Assembly: GCA_002772815.1 (NCBI GenBank) | Contig: PFDQ01000043.1 | Location: forward strand, 15,955-65,970 | Source of the DNA: Candidatus Peregrinibacteria bacterium CG10_big_fil_rev_8_21_14_0_10_42_8 | GTDB taxonomy: Bacteria > Patescibacteriota > Gracilibacteria > Peribacterales > Peribacteraceae | DNA: 50,016 bases | Reading direction: 5' to 3' | Shown here: positions 1,476 to 38,863 of the stretch, piece by piece | How positions within the stretch are numbered: position 1 is the first letter of the stretch | Layout: each line of letters begins with the position of its first letter | Program-made: the position numbers and the translations under genes | The notes under the pieces: model-generated | What the model was told of the DNA's origin: nothing | What the model saw: only the letters and a program-made list of their open reading frames with translations | Databases searched by the model: none

Positions 1476-2198
1476 ATGCAAGAACGACTCCAGAAAATCC
1501 TCTCGGCACAAGGAATCTGCTCTAGACGGAAAGCAGAAGAGTACATCGAGGCAGGCCTCGTCACAGTAAACGGAGAAGTGGCGGCACTTGGACAAAAAGC
1601 AGATGAGGCAGTCGACACAATAGAAGTGGATGGCAAAGTTCTCGCAGATCGCAAAGAGATGCTCTACTACCTCATGAACAAGCCAGTTGGCTATATTACG
1701 AGTAATGTTGATAACGATGAGCATCCAGATAGAACTGTTCGCGATTTACTCCCAAAGGAGTTACAGGGGAAGATCTACCCCATTGGTCGCCTCGACAAAG
1801 AAACATCTGGACTCCTTCTTTTTACGAATGATGGCGTGCTTGCATACCGACTGACACATCCGTCGTTTGATCATGAAAAAGAATATGAAGTGGAATCAAA
1901 CGAAGAGGTAAAAGAAGGTCAGCTCGAAAAAATGCGCACAGGAATGATGATAAAAGATGAGAAGACAAAGCCAGCAACTGTGGAAAAAATCAGTAACACA
2001 AAATTTACTATAGCCCTAACAGAAGGGAAAAACAGACAGATCCGTCGCATGTGTAAGAAGGTAGGAATTCCACTTATTGCACTGAAGCGCACACGCATTA
2101 TGACACTAAAACCTCAGCTCGAAAAAAATGGTTTCAGAGCACTCTCTGAAAAAGAGAGAACAGCACTGTTAGAGTCAGTGCATATTGAAATTGCTTGA
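1476..2198 (+). CDS. Pseudouridine synthase, RsuA/RluB family with N-terminal S4 domain
   Basis: An internal ATG was chosen. MQERLQKILSAQGICSRRKAEEYI matches an S4 RNA-binding N-terminus. The catalytic motif is GRLDKETSGLLLFTNDG. Confidence 0.85.
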   Translation: MQERLQKILSAQGICSRRKAEEYIEAGLVTVNGEVAALGQKADEAVDTIEVDGKVLADRKEMLYYLMNKPVGYITSNVDNDEHPDRTVRDLLPKELQGKIYPIGRLDKETSGLLLFTNDGVLAYRLTHPSFDHEKEYEVESNEEVKEGQLEKMRTGMMIKDEKTKPATVEKISNTKFTIALTEGKNRQIRRMCKKVGIPLIALKRTRIMTLKPQLEKNGFRALSEKERTALLESVHIEIA

Positions 2199-2226
2199 GG
2201 TTAGTATAATTGGTATTATTCGTTTA

Positions 2227-5200
2227 ATGAAAAAAAAGTTTGTTGTAATTGGTATGGCGTTTAGCGCCCTTTTGCTAATTATTTTTACATTGCAGTCACA
2301 ATGGGGAAACTTGAAGGGGCAATCGGGATGGACTGAGTCATGTAGTATAGCGGCTAACCCTGATGGATCATGCCCCTATGGATATGGTGACCAAGGGGGA
2401 GTGTGTTATTCCTCTGATGGGACATTATGTACATGTACTAACGGAGCTAGTGGTTTTTGCGGAGCGGGGAGTTGTAGTTGTTCAGAGGTTGAGCCAGCAA
2501 GAGGAACGTGTTGTGACACAGCAACATCACCAGGTTCACCAAGTTATTTAACAGAACAAGGCTGTACAGATATGCAAGGAATATGGCATCAAGGGCCGTA
2601 TAATATGGCACTTTGCTTTTCTATCACATCGTCATCAGCATCCTCAGTAGTGTTAAGCTCGTCTGTCCAAAGCTCTTCCGTTGCGCCACGATGTGGCGAT
2701 GGAACAGTAGACCAAGGAGAACAGTGTGATGATAGTAATACTACAGATAATGATGGATGTTCTCGTTCGTGTAAAAACGAGAGGTGTGGGGATGGTATTA
2801 AACAATTAAATGAAGAATGTGATGATGAAAACACAGTGACTGCAGATGCGTGTACGAATGCTTGCACGGTAGCAAAGTGTGGAGATGGTGTTCTCCGTTC
2901 AGGGTTCGACCCCCAAACGAACGTGATCTATGAGCAGTGTGATGATGGTAATACAAACAATGATGATGGATGTGATAGTAGCTGTAAGATAGAACGATGT
3001 GGAAATTACGTTATTGAATCAAACGAAATGTGTGAACAGATCAATAATGGGTGGGTGCAAGATACGACATGTGGAAATGGTCAGTTTTGCTGTGCAGAAT
3101 GTACTACTTGTCGGATAGCGTGCCCCTTTCTTGATTCAAATGGCAGCGGTGAGATTCCTGATGGATATGGTATTCGCGGAAGGGGTGGGGAATGTGGTTC
3201 GCCGTTGTGTTATACAAGTTGTAGTTCTGCAGTATTCGAACGATGTGCAGAATGCAGTGGTTGTGGCGAGTCAGACTCTGTAGAAAGCTGCGAAGAAATG
3301 TGTGGAGATAAACCTGCGTCAGACCCATGTTGGGACGATTGTCATGAGAATAAGATATGTAATGCAGCCTGTGAAGACCCAGATGGTGATGGTATAGGGT
3401 ATTACATGGAAAACTTGTCATGCGTGAGTGGTGTTGGCGATTCCCCTGCAACGTGTCAGTTTATTACGAGTAGTAACACAGGAGGAGGTTCAGGAGGCCA
3501 AAATGGAGGGGGAAACGGAGGGCAGAATGGTGGAAATAATGGCGGAGCAAGTGGCGGAGGTGAGGGTGGTGACACCGGTGGAACGGATACAGGCGGAACA
3601 GACGGCGGTGCGTCCGGCGGTGATACGGGTGGAGCATCTTCTGCATCGGCATCTTCGATAAGTTCAACTCCACACTGCTACGAAACAGGCGAGTGTTCTA
3701 CTTGTCCCAGTTGTTTCAGTTCGTGTTTCTGCACTATGCATATCAATGCGCAAAACCAAGGGTTACCCCCGCCAAGTACCAGCCGGATTGAAAGCACTTG
3801 TACGGCTCAATGTGTCGATAGCCCACCACCTAATTCTTCCTCAAATGGAAATACATCAAGCGCTTCTAGTAGGTCTAATACCTCTAGCACTTCACGGTCA
3901 AATGGATCGGTGCCTTCTAATGGAAATAGCAGTTCTGTTATTGTTGCTTTCGATTATCATTATGAATGTATGCAGCAAAGCTGTGTACTTGTTCTGACTG
4001 CGGGGCAAGATACATGTGCTACTGACAAAGATTGTTTGGGAGCTAAGTCGTCAACGTCTGCAAATCAGTCATCGTTAAGCTCAGGGTCGTCAGGTTCAGA
4101 TCAATCTTCATCATTCTCTGATAGCTCGAATAATTCATTTAACTTCTCTTCATCATTCTCTGATGGCTCGAATAATTCATCTAACTTCTCTTCATCGCTA
4201 TCTTATAGTTCAGATACTTCTAATTTCTCTTCATCATTCTTAAGCAGTTCTATTAATTCTTCAGATATATCGAATGTTTCATCATCATCAGAATTCTCAG
4301 ATTCTTCCGCTTCCTCAGGTGTATCTACTTCTTATACCTTTAGTCAGCCTTCTTTTGCATCGTATTCTTCTGAGAATTCACAGAATTCAAATTCTAGTAT
4401 TGTGCAAGAATCATCTACATCTAACGTATCAAGCACGTCGTTTAGCATTCGCTTCTCTTCTGATTCTGAATCAAGCACATCATCACGAGGTAGTGCAAGA
4501 AGTTCGTTTGCAAACAGTACAATCATCGTCATTGCAGAAGATGATGATGGAGACGGAGACGGCGATGATGGCTTCCGAGATAATAACAATCAGTGGGTTT
4601 TGAGGCCATCTAGCTTCATTGCACAAAACGTAAACGGTACATTAGTAGCTGCAGCATCTATGTGTGGTAATGGTATTCTTGATGTTGGCGAAGAGTGTGA
4701 CGACAGCAATAGACGTGACAACGATGGTTGTTCGATATCGTGCCTTCTTGAGATTGGTATTTGTGGGGATGGAAAAGTACAAAGCCTTCTAGGAGAGCAA
4801 TGTGAGGGTGGTATTGATTGTCAGAAGTGTCGATTTGTGAGTCAGACATGTGGAGATGGCATAGTAGACCCAAGAGAAGAATGTGATAGTGGCGCGTTAA
4901 ACTCTTTGTCACCAAATGCTGACTGTCGCCCAGACTGTAGTTTATCTCGATGTGGTGATTCAGTGCTCGATACAACGGAGCTCTGTGATGATGGAAATCG
5001 ACTCAATAGTGATGGGTGTGACAGGTATTGCAGACTAGAAACAACAGTTCTTGCACAGCAAAATAGCAATAATTATGAGCAATTACAGGCTCAGATGTTA
5101 GCGAATCAACAGTTTGGCTTCCCTCAATACGCAAACTATCAACAGTTGCCCTATCAGTTGCCACTTGCACAGCTTCAACCACTTATACAGAACCAAGGTC

Positions 5201-5295
5201 CAATAGGTGATACAGGTCCTGCTGCAGTAGCAGTAGCAGCATCAGGAATGGCTGCAGGAGTCGGCTGGATACGAAGGAAGAAGCGAAAATCGTAG
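2227..5295 (+). CDS. Large cysteine-rich repeat surface protein with signal peptide, Gly-rich and Ser-rich low-complexity regions and a C-terminal sorting-signal-like tail
   Basis: Signal/TM segment MKKKFVVIGMAFSALLLIIF. About 8 copies of CGDGxxxxxEqCDDgNxxxxDGCxxxC (Myxococcus-type cysteine-rich repeat pattern), in two blocks at roughly nt 2690-3010 and 4660-5040. The tail is IGDTGPAAVAVAASGMAAGVGWIRRKKRKS. Confidence 0.85.
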   Translation: MKKKFVVIGMAFSALLLIIFTLQSQWGNLKGQSGWTESCSIAANPDGSCPYGYGDQGGVCYSSDGTLCTCTNGASGFCGAGSCSCSEVEPARGTCCDTATSPGSPSYLTEQGCTDMQGIWHQGPYNMALCFSITSSSASSVVLSSSVQSSSVAPRCGDGTVDQGEQCDDSNTTDNDGCSRSCKNERCGDGIKQLNEECDDENTVTADACTNACTVAKCGDGVLRSGFDPQTNVIYEQCDDGNTNNDDGCDSSCKIERCGNYVIESNEMCEQINNGWVQDTTCGNGQFCCAECTTCRIACPFLDSNGSGEIPDGYGIRGRGGECGSPLCYTSCSSAVFERCAECSGCGESDSVESCEEMCGDKPASDPCWDDCHENKICNAACEDPDGDGIGYYMENLSCVSGVGDSPATCQFITSSNTGGGSGGQNGGGNGGQNGGNNGGASGGGEGGDTGGTDTGGTDGGASGGDTGGASSASASSISSTPHCYETGECSTCPSCFSSCFCTMHINAQNQGLPPPSTSRIESTCTAQCVDSPPPNSSSNGNTSSASSRSNTSSTSRSNGSVPSNGNSSSVIVAFDYHYECMQQSCVLVLTAGQDTCATDKDCLGAKSSTSANQSSLSSGSSGSDQSSSFSDSSNNSFNFSSSFSDGSNNSSNFSSSLSYSSDTSNFSSSFLSSSINSSDISNVSSSSEFSDSSASSGVSTSYTFSQPSFASYSSENSQNSNSSIVQESSTSNVSSTSFSIRFSSDSESSTSSRGSARSSFANSTIIVIAEDDDGDGDGDDGFRDNNNQWVLRPSSFIAQNVNGTLVAAASMCGNGILDVGEECDDSNRRDNDGCSISCLLEIGICGDGKVQSLLGEQCEGGIDCQKCRFVSQTCGDGIVDPREECDSGALNSLSPNADCRPDCSLSRCGDSVLDTTELCDDGNRLNSDGCDRYCRLETTVLAQQNSNNYEQLQAQMLANQQFGFPQYANYQQLPYQLPLAQLQPLIQNQGPIGDTGPAAVAVAASGMAAGVGWIRRKKRKS
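4105..4270 (+). repeat. Tandem ~42-nt repeats inside the Ser-rich region
   Basis: Two near-identical units (tcttcatcattctctgatRgctcgaataattcatYtaactt) encode SSSFSD(S/G)SNNS(F/S)NF. Two degenerate units follow. Confidence 0.7.
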
Positions 5296-28038: not shown

Positions 28039-28404
28039 ATGAAACTCAAAGAAATCGCAAAACTTACGTGGCTACCAGTTGTCGGCGCATCACTTTGCTG
28101 CCTTAGTCCAGTGATCATCGTCCTGTTTGGTCTTGGAACAGCAGCATTTGCCAGTTCTCTTGCAGATACACTCTACGGAGACTACAAGTGGTTCTTTAGA
28201 ATAGGTGGGCTCTTCCTTTTGTTGCTGTCAGTCTTTTATCACTATCGAAAGAAGGGTGTCTGTTCGCTCGACCAAGCGAAGCGTCATAAGAACGAAATCC
28301 TCAACACAATTCTTATTACCGTCTTTGCAGGAGCAATAGGATACGTCTTCTTCTTGTATGTTGTCGTGCACTACGCTGGTGTGTGGTTGAATTTGTGGGT
28401 TTGA
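28039..28404 (+). CDS. MerT-like three-TM membrane protein with a CC motif in TM1
   Basis: VVGASLCCLSPVIIVLFGLG resembles the MerT TM1 vicinal-Cys motif. A loop Cys (KKGVCSLD) lies between TM2 and TM3. Confidence 0.5.
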   Translation: MKLKEIAKLTWLPVVGASLCCLSPVIIVLFGLGTAAFASSLADTLYGDYKWFFRIGGLFLLLLSVFYHYRKKGVCSLDQAKRHKNEILNTILITVFAGAIGYVFFLYVVVHYAGVWLNLWV

Positions 28405-28413
28405 TCTATCAGC

Positions 28414-28592
28414 TTGTAACTTTTGGGATCAAAAGTTACCAAAAATCTTAACCACTGATATGAACGAAGAAATACAGGAAGAACGTACTGTGCGCTCCTC
28501 GACTAAGCTTGCTGCGGCAACTTAGCTCTTCGTCACTAAGAAGAAGTGCAGCGGTGTGATCTTCGTCCATACTACAGTGGCTAGAAGATGGA
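28414..28592 (+). repeat. Structured repeat, copy A (5' hairpin module + core + 3' module)
   Basis: Hairpin GTAACTTTTG-ggat-CAAAAGTTAC (28416-28439). The core CAAAAATCTTAACCACTGATATGAACGAAGAAATA...GTGCGCTCCTC is shared with copies B and C. The 3' module GCGGTGTGATCTTCGTCCATAC is identical to copy B. Confidence 0.8.
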
Positions 28593-28913
28593 TCACCCCC
28601 ACTTCTTCCCCCACTTACAAAAACCTCCAAAGACAGTCTGTAGGTCTGCTCCTTTTTCAGTAATGCTGTATTCAATGCAGATAGGCTTACCATCGGTTAC
28701 TGTTCGTTCGATGAGGCCTTCTTCTTCCAGTTCTGTCAGCCGCTCGGAAAGAATACGAGAGTTGATCTCTGGTAGCGCATCTTTAATTTCGCAAAACCGC
28801 ATTTTCTTTGTATCTGCGATACATCGTAAAATATGCATTGCCCACTTTTTTGAGCAAAAATCAATGATTCCGTAGATCGGACAATCGCACGATGATGGTT
28901 GTTTTTTAGGCAT
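28593..28913 (-). CDS. HxlR-family (MarR-like winged helix) transcriptional regulator
   Basis: CPIYGIIDFCSKKWAMHILRCI...RFCEIKDALPEINSRILSERLTELEEEGLIERT is a typical HxlR signature. Confidence 0.85.
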   Translation of the reverse strand: MPKKQPSSCDCPIYGIIDFCSKKWAMHILRCIADTKKMRFCEIKDALPEINSRILSERLTELEEEGLIERTVTDGKPICIEYSITEKGADLQTVFGGFCKWGKKWG

Positions 28914-28921
28914 GTACGGTT

Positions 28922-28927
28922 AGTATA
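28922..28927 (-). promoter_or_regulatory. -10 box TATACT
   Basis: Lies 8 nt upstream of the HxlR ATG (28913). Confidence 0.4.
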
Positions 28928-28977
28928 CATAGATATACCTCCAAAAACTACTTAATTACTATTAAATACATGTTTTA

Positions 28978-28997
28978 CAAAAGTAACCGACTAAGCT
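28978..28997 (+). repeat. Deleted fragment (D) of the structured repeat
   Basis: CAAAAGTAACC is joined directly to GACTAAGCT. In copy A these two strings are separated by 61 nt. Confidence 0.5.
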
Positions 28998-29031
28998 AGA
29001 CTACGTCTGTTATTTCCTACCCCTAATACTT

Positions 29032-29187
29032 ATGGGATGTTGTTCAAAGGACAATCATTGCTCTGATGAGAGCAAGAAATGTTCAGAAGGTTGTACTTGC
29101 GATACATGCAAGGAATGCGCTGAAAAGTGCAAAGAGAAGTGTGATGAAAAGTCTTCAGAGCACAAAGGTGATAGTTGTTGCGGTTAA
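29032..29187 (+). CDS. Metallothionein-like cysteine-rich small protein (51 aa, 12 Cys), absent from the ORF track
   Basis: My own translation is MGCCSKDNHCSDESKKCSEGCTCDTCKECAEKCKEKCDEKSSEHKGDSCCG*. It has CC, CxC and CxxC motifs. It is divergent from the HxlR gene and next to the MerT-like gene. Confidence 0.65.
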   Translation: MGCCSKDNHCSDESKKCSEGCTCDTCKECAEKCKEKCDEKSSEHKGDSCCG

Positions 29188-29284
29188 GCAGACTCTTCAT
29201 CGTCAAACAGGGCATCCTGGGTGGGGTGTTCTGTTTTTATGTAGCTTCGCTATCTTCATTTGTGCCTTTTTTGATAAATGATTT

Positions 29285-29600
29285 GTAACTTTTCAGATGA
29301 AAAGTAACCAAAAATCTTCGCCACTGATATGGACGAAGAAATAAAGAGAGAACGAAGCGTGCGCTCCTCAGTAAACTTCGTCGCTAAGTACGCGTGAAGC
29401 GGTGTGATCTTCGTCCATACGACAGTGGCTGGACGAGCGAGAAGTTAAGGGTGGGTTGGCAGACTGCATGTTTGAGGGCGAAGAATAAGATATGAGTAAA
29501 AGGAATACAGCGACGAGAGCCAGTCGCTGTAAGCGAACGCAGTGACCTGGGCGAGGAGCGCAAAGGAAAAAGGGGCAAAGGAATAGCGGAGTTAATATAT
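29285..29600 (+). repeat. Structured repeat, copy B (longest copy: hairpin + core + 3' module + about 170-nt extension)
   Basis: Hairpin GTAACTTTTC-agat-GAAAAGTAAC (29285-29308). About 85% identical to copy A over the first ~85 nt, judged by eye. The extension contains GAGGAGCGCA, complementary to the core GTGCGCTCCTC, plus a tail shared with copy C. Confidence 0.8.
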
Positions 29601-29622
29601 ACAAAGAAACCTCTTTAATTTA

Positions 29623-29651
29623 TTGACCCCCCTTGCTCTTCTCTTTATATT
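29623..29651 (+). promoter_or_regulatory. Sigma-70-like promoter TTGACC-N17-TATATT for the ribosomal protein cluster
   Basis: Both hexamers are near consensus with exact 17-nt spacing. It lies about 100 nt upstream of the rplC ATG. Confidence 0.55.
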
Positions 29652-38636: not shown

Positions 38637-38692
38637 TTTCTCTTTATTCTTTACATAAAGTAGCTTCACTATTCTTTTTTTGATGATTCTTT

Positions 38693-38855
38693 GTGACTTT
38701 TGAAAGATCAAAAGCAACTTCGTTAATTCCTTTTGTCCCTTTTTCCTTGCTTAGCGACGCAGGTTTACCGAGGAGCGCACAACTCTGTTCTTTTATTATT
38801 TCTTCGTTCATATCAGTGGCTAAGATTTTTGGTTACTTTTCATCGGAAAAGTGAC
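38693..38855 (-). repeat. Structured repeat, copy C (inverted relative to A/B; hairpins at both ends; internal deletion variant)
   Basis: The reverse complement reads GTCACTTTTC-cgat-GAAAAGTAAC CAAAAATCTTAGCCACTGATATGAACGAAGAAATA...GTGCGCTCCTCGGTAAAC..CGTCGCTAAGCAAGGAAAAAGGGACAAAAGG. A second hairpin, GTGACTTTTG-aaagat-CAAAAGCAAC, lies at 38693-38718. Confidence 0.75.
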
Positions 38856-38863
38856 AAAAGAGT

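What the first reader, a model, noticed from the sequence alone, without database searches (positions are those of the whole stretch)
29285..29562. Compensatory change in the repeat hairpin, plus two long-range helices that cannot coexist without a pseudoknot
The loop-closing pair of the hairpin is G-C in copy A (GTAACTTTTG/CAAAAGTTAC) but C-G in copies B and C (..TTTTC/GAAAA..), a compensatory double change. In copy B, CCACTG..GGACGAAGA (29321-29339) pairs with TCTTCGTCC..CAGTGG (29408-29428). Copy B has G where copy A has a mismatching A, which restores a perfect helix. GTGCGCTCCTC (29359-29369) lies inside that helix, yet it is complementary to GAGGAGCGCA (29553-29562) outside it. The two pairings are therefore either alternative conformers or a pseudoknot, as expected for a switch-like RNA or a ssDNA recombination substrate.
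Basis: partly seen in the sequence, partly recalled or inferred. Interest (0 to 1): 0.6.

Follow-up and report, generated by a model that had tools for sequence, protein, structure and literature searches.

The report
Decayed copy of palindromic doublet repeat
The stretch is a partly deleted copy of an undescribed, hairpin-rich repeat scattered through marine Peregrinibacteria genomes; its hairpin and first long helix are real, conserved structures, but the second "pseudoknot" helix exists because the repeat is two inverted copies of one unit, not because it is an RNA switch.

Summary
With about 80 related copies from one Peregrinibacteria MAG and marine metagenomes, the terminal hairpin keeps its loop-closing pair (C-G 49, G-C 19, U-A 5). 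Helix 1 (29320-29339 / 29408-29429) covaries.

Helix 2 (GTGCGCTCCTC / GAGGAGCGCA) is conserved but shows no covariation beyond shuffles. Its explanation is architectural. The full element, about 400-430 nt, is an inverted doublet of a roughly 175-185-nt unit (alpha plus reverse-complemented beta, 76-79% alike). The same conserved 11-mer therefore occurs once in each orientation. Only the helices inside a unit covary; pairings between units do not.

Copy B is a doublet with an internal deletion and a degenerate 3' end. Copy A is a single alpha unit. Copy C has a large internal deletion.

The family matches no Rfam model, has no conserved ORF and no nearby transposase, and sits at gene 3' ends at sites shared between species. 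My best reading is a REPIN/BIME-like mosaic palindromic repeat. A functional RNA module is not excluded. The switch/pseudoknot reading is not supported.

The parts
29279..29606 (+). Copy B: an inverted alpha/beta doublet of the repeat. It has an internal deletion at 29562/29563 and a degenerate 3' end.
   Evidence: nhmmer hit 29281-29563. Alignments to full-length copies and to the copy at the same site in L002.
29285..29308 (+). Terminal AT-rich hairpin (T5) of unit alpha; its loop-closing pair is C-G.
   Evidence: Family-wide pair counts C-G 49 / G-C 19 / U-A 5. Predicted by RNAalifold.
29309..29318 (+). Conserved A-rich junction CAAAAATCTT. Its inverted counterpart GATTTTTT occurs in unit beta of full-length copies.
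   Evidence: Invariant in alignments A2 and A3. It was part of the metagenome search pattern, but it is also invariant in the 11 MAG copies found with a different pattern.
29319..29339 (+). Helix 1, 5' arm: the closing stem of unit alpha.
   Evidence: Covariation with 29408-29431.
29359..29369 (+).
   Evidence: Nearly invariant in 44 units, including singlets that lack a partner. No covariation with 29553-29562.
29370..29377 (+). AGTAAACT, a short stand-in for the P hairpin. Copy A has the full P hairpin at 28503-28525.
   Evidence: A P-less subfamily (B, C, L049, L080, L114, L129) is seen in alignment A3. P itself covaries: pair 108/119 is CG 18 / UA 18.
29408..29431 (+). Helix 1, 3' arm.
29458..29486 (+). 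Start of the inverted unit beta. This is the 5' arm of its closing stem (H3); the partner arm is deleted in copy B.
   Evidence: In full-length copies H3 is 100% paired, with double changes in 5 of 7 pairs. Homology of the 3' half to the reverse complement of unit alpha.
29520..29550 (+). Variable hairpin V2, the beta-unit counterpart of P.
   Evidence: Closing pairs change in step between copies: CCAG/CTGG, CCAAG/CTTGG, CTACG/CGTAG, CTCTGC/GCAGAG (alignments). This was judged by eye and not scored.
29553..29562 (+).
   Evidence: colinear alignment of unit alpha with the reverse-complemented 3' half.
29563..29606 (+). Remnant of the 3' arm of the beta-unit terminal hairpin (AAGGAAAAAGGGGCA), a linker, and a collapsed outer hairpin (GTTA-ATATAT-ACAAAG).
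   Evidence: Alignments with full-length copies and with copy C.
28411..28591 (+). Copy A: a single alpha unit that fills the spacer between the MerT-like gene (stop at 28404) and the convergent HxlR gene (28593-28913, minus strand).
   Evidence: nhmmer hit covering model positions 5-186. Alignment A3. Pfam assignments of the neighbours.
38689..38860 (-). Copy C: 5' part of unit alpha joined by a large internal deletion to the beta terminal hairpin remnant and an intact outer hairpin (38718-38689).
   Evidence: Full-length and short copies occupy the same rpsE/DJ-1 site in L011, L076 and L020.

Best explanation
Copy B is a decaying member of an undescribed mosaic palindromic repeat family of marine Peregrinibacteria.

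Shown:
- The building block is a unit of about 175-185 nt. It consists of an AT-rich terminal hairpin, the junction CAAAAATC, and a long two-part closing stem (helix 1). That stem encloses a conserved unpaired GTGCGCTCCTC block, a variable hairpin (P) and a conserved TTCGTCRCT block.
- The full element (about 400-430 nt) is an alpha unit joined tail-to-tail, across a small central palindrome (AGACGA|TCGTCT), to a reverse-complemented, diverged beta unit. A further outer hairpin follows. This gives the whole element terminal inverted hairpins.
- The stems inside each unit are the structures kept by compensatory change.

Inferred:
- The family behaves like REP/REPIN/BIME-type non-autonomous repeats. 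Single-stranded DNA, or read-through transcripts, fold unit by unit into hairpins.
- Copies sit in the short spacers at gene 3' ends, persist at the same sites across species, are homogenised or replaced by other copies, and are eroded by deletions.
- The enzyme that spreads them, if any, is encoded elsewhere and was not found.
For: Family and copies:
- 3 copies lie in the window.
- At least 11 lie in one Peregrinibacteria MAG.
- Of 119 metagenome loci, 76 carry a copy or fragment; the rest are chance matches.

Doublet architecture:
- Unit alpha aligns colinearly with the reverse complement of the 3' half at 76-79% identity.
- A joint alignment of 44 alpha and 18 beta units supports this. L004b is a beta+beta doublet.
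- Reverse-strand nhmmer hits span the whole model.

Helices inside a unit are real:
- In 23 long copies, 90% of cells are paired against 43-46% when the partners are slid. 23 pairs show double changes against 6-9 when slid. 0 of 500 shuffles reach the observed score.
- In 44 units, 92% are paired against 32-49% when slid.

Pairings between units are not selected:
- Helix 2.
- CGAAGAAATA/TATTTCTTCG, where 452-497 of 500 shuffles score as high.
- The inner and outer hairpin types disagree within the same element in 3 of 6 complete copies.

Decay:
- Copies at the same genomic site in different species carry different deletions.
- Many copies are short forms or internally deleted.

Constraint or homogenisation:
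- Copy B is 87% identical to the copy at the same site in L002, while fourfold-degenerate sites in the adjacent genes are 65.5% identical.
- Those two copies nevertheless belong to different subfamilies: P hairpin present or absent, and hairpin type C-AGAT-G or G-AAAGAT-C.

Position:
- In 36 of 50 copies the upstream gene is co-oriented, and 22 of those 36 begin within 20 nt of its stop codon.
- In 30 of 42 copies the downstream gene is convergent.

Exclusions:
- No Rfam family.
- No conserved ORF.
- Nothing in phage, plasmid or viral collections apart from one 36-nt low-complexity match in a Persicobacter plasmid.
Against: - No mobilising enzyme was found. About 500 kb of neighbouring sequence holds no transposase-like paralogue, and the genes next to paired copies are housekeeping genes.
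- No empty site and no target-site duplication was found, so mobility itself is not shown.
- The alpha and beta halves are distinct, stable lineages only about 77% alike, unlike the near-identical arms of REPINs.
- Unpaired junction blocks are conserved across both unit types and across species. A purely selfish palindrome does not obviously need that, and it fits a functional RNA or protein-binding module better.
- The folding strand could not be settled. G.U pairs outnumber A.C pairs on the top strand in the beta half (17 to 1). The commonest non-Watson-Crick pair of helix 1 is A.C on the top strand, which would be G.U on the bottom strand.
Confidence: 0.55

Rival explanations
1. The unit is a functional cis-acting or processed RNA module, for example a 3'-UTR element placed hairpin-first behind stop codons. 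The closing stem and three-way junction would present the conserved GUGCGCUCCUC and UUCGUCRCU blocks to a protein or to another RNA. At convergent gene pairs a doublet would serve both genes.
For: - Covariation in four to five helices.
- Conserved unpaired blocks are shared by the alpha and beta units although the units are 23% diverged.
- The element is more conserved than fourfold-degenerate sites: 87% against 65.5%.
- Units are biased to follow a co-oriented gene within 0-20 nt of its stop codon.
- The P hairpin can be replaced by a 3-bp mini-hairpin with a UAAA loop, as happens in RNA families.
- One 214-nt contig lying wholly inside the element is present in an rRNA-depleted metatranscriptome.
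Against: - Individual copies are clearly dispensable. Copies at the same site are truncated or deleted differently in different species, and all three window copies are defective.
- Wobble-pair asymmetry does not point to the sense strand of the units.
- No terminator-like U tract follows any hairpin.
- The RNA evidence is one low-depth contig (3.8), and DNA carry-over is not excluded.
- Tight abutment to genes is expected anyway in a genome with very short spacers.
Confidence: 0.3
2. One reading: helix 1 and helix 2 are alternative conformers or a true pseudoknot of a switch-like RNA.
For: - Both pairings exist in copy B and in most doublets, where helix 2 is 77% paired.
- In a few copies helix 2 extends into flanks that differ between copies: L005, L004b and L049.
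- L064 and L072 carry a U-A to A-U exchange.
- The minimum-free-energy fold of a full copy uses helix 2 rather than helix 1, so two global folds do compete thermodynamically.
Against: - There is no covariation beyond shuffles, and own arms pair no better than arms from other copies, p = 0.32.
- Sliding the partners by 2 columns pairs almost as well (73%), because the arm contains the repetitive GCGC.
- The 5' arm is equally conserved in singlets that lack a 3' arm.
- Three recombinant doublets (L026, L029, L102) have a poor helix 2, about -7 kcal/mol.
- The inverted-duplicate architecture predicts the complementarity without invoking any function.
Confidence: 0.07
3. A known structured mobile RNA in disguise: an ORF-less group I or group II intron, an IscB/TnpB guide (omega) RNA, an IS110 bridge RNA or a retron RNA.
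For: Size of about 400 nt, multiple copies, a position just after genes (as for class C group II introns), crossing long-range pairings, and a GTGCG motif.
Against: - No Rfam match even at E-values up to 10 on isolated full copies.
- No associated IscB, TnpB, reverse transcriptase or recombinase ORF in any of 76 loci.
- No hypervariable guide-like segment at either end. The variable stretches are internal hairpins.
- The element is an inverted duplication of one unit, which none of these RNAs is.
Confidence: 0.05

Closest known systems
REP / REPIN elements (inverted REP doublets mobilised by RAYT Y1 transposases; PMC3116915, PMC3337134, PMC8049555)
   Same: - Extragenic palindromic repeats built as two units in inverted orientation.
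- Singlets occur as decay products.
- Compensatory changes keep the hairpins.
- Copies lie at gene 3' ends and between convergent genes.
- Copies persist for a long time at the same sites.
- No transposase lies inside the element.
   Different: - The unit is about 175-185 nt with a three-way junction and conserved unpaired blocks, whereas a REP is about 20-35 nt.
- The two halves are distinct alpha and beta lineages only about 77% alike.
- Pairing between the units is not under selection.
- The host is a CPR bacterium.
BIMEs and other mosaic repeats (enterobacterial BIME, pneumococcal BOX; from my own knowledge)
   Same: Modular combinations of a few unit types in alternating orientation, with variable linkers and many partial forms, lying in transcribed intergenic regions.
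   Different: The sequences are unrelated. The units here are far larger and each has its own covarying multi-helix fold.
MITEs with conserved RNA-like folds (Neisseria Correia elements, enterobacterial ERIC, Bacillus cereus bcr1; from my own knowledge)
   Same: Terminal inverted repeats, no ORF, tens of copies, positions next to stop codons, and evidence of structure conservation when transcribed.
   Different: No target-site duplication and no parent insertion sequence are visible. The 'terminal inverted repeats' here are themselves hairpins. The interior is an inverted duplication, not a deleted transposase gene.
Folded single-stranded DNA recombination sites (integron attC; IS200/IS605 ends)
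   Same: The structure, not the sequence, of imperfect palindromes is conserved. There is a conserved mismatch in the stem (position 3 of the terminal hairpin), and copies lie just after ORFs.
   Different: - attC sites are 57-141 nt and lie in cassette arrays.
- IS200/IS605 end hairpins lie in direct orientation, not inverted as here.
- No integrase or TnpA gene is nearby.

Membership tests
REPIN/REP-RAYT system | [quoted passage not shown] | tested here: met
   Unit alpha plus reverse-complemented unit beta around the central AGACGA|TCGTCT palindrome.
REPIN/REP-RAYT system | The two arms are near-identical, and the doublet-wide hairpin is maintained by compensatory change | tested here: not met
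   The arms are 76-79% identical. Pairings between units show no covariation.
REPIN/REP-RAYT system | A single-copy RAYT (Y1_Tnp) gene flanked by the repeats in the same genome | not testable with these tools
No such gene turned up in about 500 kb of neighbouring sequence, but that screen finds only multi-copy genes. Ten genes flanking copies are not transposases.
REPIN/REP-RAYT system | Short REP unit (about 20-35 nt) with a conserved 5' GTAG-like head | tested here: not met
   The unit is about 175-185 nt. Only its terminal hairpin (24 nt, GTNAC head) is of REP size.
MITE (DDE-transposon derivative) | Terminal inverted repeats | tested here: met
   TCTTTGTNACTTTTS..SAAAAGTNAC at the 5' end and its reverse complement at the 3' end of complete copies.
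MITE (DDE-transposon derivative) | Target-site duplication flanking the element | tested here: not met
   No shared flanking repeat in 6 complete copies. The apparent 14-bp repeat at L005 is a tandem partial second copy.
MITE (DDE-transposon derivative) | A parent element with the same ends and a transposase gene; insertion polymorphism | tested here: inconclusive
   No pair of ends encloses an ORF in any locus. No empty site was found among 130 sequences.
Structured RNA families of Rfam 15 (group I and II introns, HEARO/omega RNA, ROOL, GOLLD, OLE, raiA and others) | A match to the family covariance model | tested here: not met
   No match at gathering score in the window. Only noise at E-values up to 5-10 on full copies and on 28380-29640.
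   Helix 1 is supported. Helix 2 is not.
Intrinsic (Rho-independent) terminator | GC-rich hairpin followed by a U tract on the transcribed strand | tested here: not met
   The terminal hairpins are AT-rich. They are followed by CAAAAAUCUU (alpha) or preceded by the U tract (beta), as read directly from the sequence.

The most novel reading that the evidence does not exclude
The unit of about 175-185 nt is a new class of structured RNA. A long two-part stem closes a three-way junction that displays the invariant GUGCGCUCCUC and UUCGUCRCU blocks. The unit is used repeatedly as a 3'-end module behind many genes in small-genome marine Peregrinibacteria. Alternatively it is the RNA or single-stranded DNA partner of a still unknown recombinase or RNA-guided enzyme. 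On this reading the inverted doublet is its form at convergent gene pairs, and the complementary 11-mers could let the two halves, or sense and antisense transcripts, interact.
Probability: 0.25. Interest if true: 0.75.

Novelty: new variant of a known kind. Interest (0 to 1): 0.5.

Why it matters
CPR bacteria such as Peregrinibacteria have genomes of about 1 Mb with very little spare DNA. Even so, this lineage keeps ten or more copies of a 400-nt, non-coding, elaborately folded repeat at the same sites across species whose synonymous sites are about 35% diverged. That makes the family a clean case for asking two questions. How do intragenomic 'sequence populations' persist in streamlined genomes? 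Are they parasites, domesticated 3'-end modules, or substrates of an unknown enzyme?

For annotation, the result warns that crossing 'pseudoknot' complementarities inside palindromic repeats can be purely architectural. It also gives a defined unit model that can be turned into a covariance model to mask or annotate these elements in marine metagenomes.

Tried and rejected
- Rfam, both at gathering score and with permissive E-values, on the window, on five loci and on isolated copies: no family.
- tRNA and tmRNA scan of the window: none.
- Coding potential: no frame is open consistently in 21 full copies.
- Group I or II intron, omega/bridge/retron RNA: no model match, no partner ORF, no guide-like variable end.
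- Intrinsic terminator: no U tract after any hairpin.
- Target-site duplication and empty sites: none. Only copies at the same sites with different deletions.
- Transposase search by recurrent non-syntenic paralogues in 557 ORFs: only S-layer-homology proteins, glycosyltransferases and similar. Pfam on 10 flanking genes gave housekeeping families.
- Phage, plasmid and viral collections: nothing apart from one 36-nt low-complexity match.
- Transcription: no RNA run holds the stretch. The six RNA runs listed came up only because they belong to studies whose DNA runs hold it. Laying them gave one 214-nt low-depth contig inside the element and nothing else.
- Folding strand from G.U versus A.C counts: contradictory between the two halves. 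The joint unit alignment was out of register for the beta stems, so its counts were discarded.
- 'Rod' fold, in which the two units pair with each other: it is the minimum-free-energy fold of a single sequence, but it has no covariation.
- Literature: no paper on such a repeat in Peregrinibacteria turned up.
The window's own genome could therefore not be searched for copy number or for a RAYT or other transposase.

Full report
**What is at the coordinates.**
- The hairpin GTAACTTTTC-AGAT-GAAAAGTAAC lies at 29285-29308.
- Helix 1 pairs 29321-29339 with 29408-29428.
- GTGCGCTCCTC (29359-29369) is complementary to GAGGAGCGCA (29553-29562), and this pairing crosses helix 1.
- The window holds three copies of the repeat: A at 28411-28591 (+), B at 29279-29606 (+) and C at 38860-38689 (-).
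- The surrounding genes are a MerT-like protein, an HxlR regulator, a small Cys-rich peptide, the rplC-rpsE ribosomal block and a DJ-1 protein.

**Bringing in relatives.**
- A scan of reference genomes with a 22-nt pattern from helix 1 returned ten loci. All lie in one MAG labelled Candidatus Peregrinibacteria (JABJGX01). One of these loci holds a second copy, so the MAG has at least eleven.
These come mostly from marine metagenomes (DNA runs that hold copy B include groundwater samples). Seventy-six of the loci carry a copy or fragment; the rest are chance matches.
- After removing duplicates I had 54 distinct copies, 21 of them long at about 370-430 nt.
- Each of the two search patterns is nearly invariant in the set found with the other pattern. 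Their conservation is therefore not only an ascertainment effect.

**The hairpin and helix 1 are real, conserved structures.**
- Across 78 distinct copies the loop-closing pair of the terminal hairpin is C-G 49, G-C 19, U-A 5, A-U 1 and U.G 1, with 3 mismatches. Both C-G and G-C occur with the same loop sequences (AAAGAT, GGAT, CGAT), so the swap happened more than once.
- On 44 units, the stems I specified are 92% paired, against 32-49% when the partners are slid by 1-3 columns. None of 500 shuffles reaches the observed covariation score.
- RNAalifold finds the hairpin and helix 1 without guidance. It adds a covarying pair at the base of helix 1: U-A 19, A-U 10, C-G 2.
- Within helix 1, one pair alternates A-U (24) and G-C (18).

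**The larger picture.**
- The long copies contain further covarying stems. These are hairpin P (pair C-G 18 / U-A 18), a second long stem H3 (100% paired, double changes in 5 of 7 pairs, for example GGCAGAC/GTCTGCC against GTCAGTTGC/GCAACTGAC against GGCGAGTGCA/TGCACTCGCC), and an 11-bp hairpin S2.
- For the whole structure on 23 sequences, 90% of cells pair against 43-46% when slid. Twenty-three pairs show changes on both sides against 6-9 when slid.

**Why helix 2 exists.** Helix 2 taken alone behaves differently.
- It is 77% paired, but every covariation measure sits at the shuffle mean (193-397 of 500 shuffles score as high).
- A slide of two columns pairs almost as well (73%), because the arm is GCGC-repetitive.
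- Each copy's own two arms pair no better than arms taken from different copies (mean -17.8 against -17.6 kcal/mol, p = 0.32).

The explanation came from four observations.
- The reverse strand of each long copy also matches the family profile end to end.
- Many copies stop at the same point, just after helix 1.
- The minimum-free-energy fold of a full copy is a rod in which the 5' half pairs with the 3' half.
- Aligning the 5' unit with the reverse complement of the 3' half gives a colinear match of 76-79% identity over about 150 nt in four different copies. A joint alignment of 44 5' units and 18 reverse-complemented 3' units shows every block in the same order: terminal hairpin (S2 is the counterpart of the 5' hairpin), AAAAATC, closing stem, CGAAGAAAT, GTGCGCTCC-TC, variable hairpin, TTCGTCGCT, ATCTTCG, closing stem.

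The full element is therefore an inverted doublet: unit alpha, a small central palindrome (AGACGA|TCGTCT), a reverse-complemented unit beta, and one more outer hairpin. One copy (L004b) is beta+beta.

GAGGAGCGCA is simply the beta unit's copy of the conserved 11-mer. The 11-mer is equally conserved in single units that have no partner, such as copy A. A second pairing between units, CGAAGAAATA/TATTTCTTCG, also lacks covariation. In three of six complete copies the two terminal hairpins are of different types and so could not pair with each other.

What evolution preserves is the fold of each unit, not pairing between units. The crossing of helix 1 and helix 2 is an architectural by-product. 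A true pseudoknot or a switch cannot be excluded by sequence alone, but nothing requires it.

**The state of copy B.**
- Against full copies, copy B has unit alpha with the P hairpin replaced by AGTAAACT. This is a subfamily trait shared with copy C and several relatives.
- It keeps the first two thirds of unit beta.
- A deletion at 29562/29563 then removes the 3' arm of H3, the U-rich junction and the 5' arm of S2.
- The outer hairpin has collapsed to GTTA-ATATAT-ACAAAG.
- The copy at the same site upstream of rplC in the related MAG (L002/L067) has a different internal deletion, keeps P, and has the other hairpin type.
- Copy C shares its rpsE/DJ-1 site with a full-length copy in L011/L076 and a short one in L020.

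**Population behaviour.**
- I found no empty site and no target-site duplication.
- Copies at shared sites differ by deletions, so single copies are dispensable.
- Yet copy B and its counterpart in L002 are 87% identical, while fourfold-degenerate sites in the adjacent ribosomal genes are 65.5% identical.
- Copies at different sites within one genome are 82-90% alike.
- Copies at the same site can belong to different subfamilies.
- Together this points to constraint on the unit sequence plus homogenisation or replacement by other copies.
- In 36 of 50 cases the upstream gene is co-oriented, and 22 of those units begin within 20 nt of its stop codon. In 30 of 42 cases the downstream gene is convergent. 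These counts include some orthologous duplicates.

**What it is not.**
- There is no Rfam match at any threshold.
- No reading frame is conserved.
- No U tract follows any hairpin.
- No transposase, nuclease or reverse transcriptase is near any copy.
- Phage, plasmid and viral collections hold nothing apart from one 36-nt low-complexity match in a Persicobacter plasmid.
- Transcription could not be established. No RNA run holds the stretch. One 214-nt contig at depth 3.8 in an rRNA-depleted seawater metatranscriptome lies wholly inside the element, across the alpha/beta junction.
- Wobble-pair counts do not identify the folding strand. In the beta half the top strand has G.U 17 against A.C 1. 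The dominant A.C pair of helix 1 would be G.U on the bottom strand.

**Verdict.**
- The most likely identity is an undescribed mosaic palindromic repeat of the REP/REPIN/BIME kind, with unusually large and elaborately folded units. Copy B is a decaying doublet of it.
- About one chance in four to one in three remains that the unit is a functional RNA module.
- The closest known systems differ in unit size, in the divergence of the two arms and in the lack of a known mobilising enzyme, so I rate it a new variant of a known kind.

Noticed in passing
L008:3561-3600, L011:655-680, L018:1609-1690, L059:2785-2823, L095:188-227, L097:1923-1961, L098:2226-2251, L128:1411-1436 and others; none in the window: A second small repeat family of about 60-110 nt: ACAGAGCT-CCCYTCTCC..GGAGARGGG-YTGGGGRTGAGGTC, a GC-rich hairpin. 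It gave 15 hits in related contigs. It is often nested in or abuts the main repeat, and in L011/L076 it replaces the 5' part of unit alpha.
   Followed up: partly
L010:303-513 (run X20); also window 28489-28581 joined to 29457: One 214-nt contig (depth 3.8) from an rRNA-depleted seawater metatranscriptome lies entirely inside the repeat and spans the alpha/beta junction, at about 85% identity. This is a weak hint that doublets are transcribed. DNA carry-over is not excluded.
   Followed up: partly
L014:1184-1202, L042:760-778, L101:2928-2946, L013, L032, L113: The same hairpin plus ACCAAAAATCTT module occurs in contigs that look unrelated to Peregrinibacteria, for example between a SufS-like and a SufU-like gene in L101. 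There it is followed by different palindromes. This could be chance or a wider superfamily that shares only the terminal module.
   Followed up: partly
window 28411-28591 versus L002:3188-3294: Copy A fills the whole 187-nt spacer between the convergent MerT-like and HxlR genes. In the related MAG the same spacer is only about 100 nt, so copy A has no full counterpart there. I did not inspect the sequence of that spacer.
   Followed up: no
window 2185-5295 versus L106:3870-4314: The 1036-aa Cys-rich repeat protein gene of the window is absent from the syntenic place in L106. That place holds a short repeat copy (L106 3940-4123) within a 444-nt spacer.
   Followed up: no
L005:784-830: Directly after the 3' hairpin of the L005 doublet, the 14-nt 5' flank (AGAATCTTTCTCTT) recurs and is followed by a fragment of another 5' hairpin. 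This is a tandem partial duplication that mimics a target-site duplication.
   Followed up: partly
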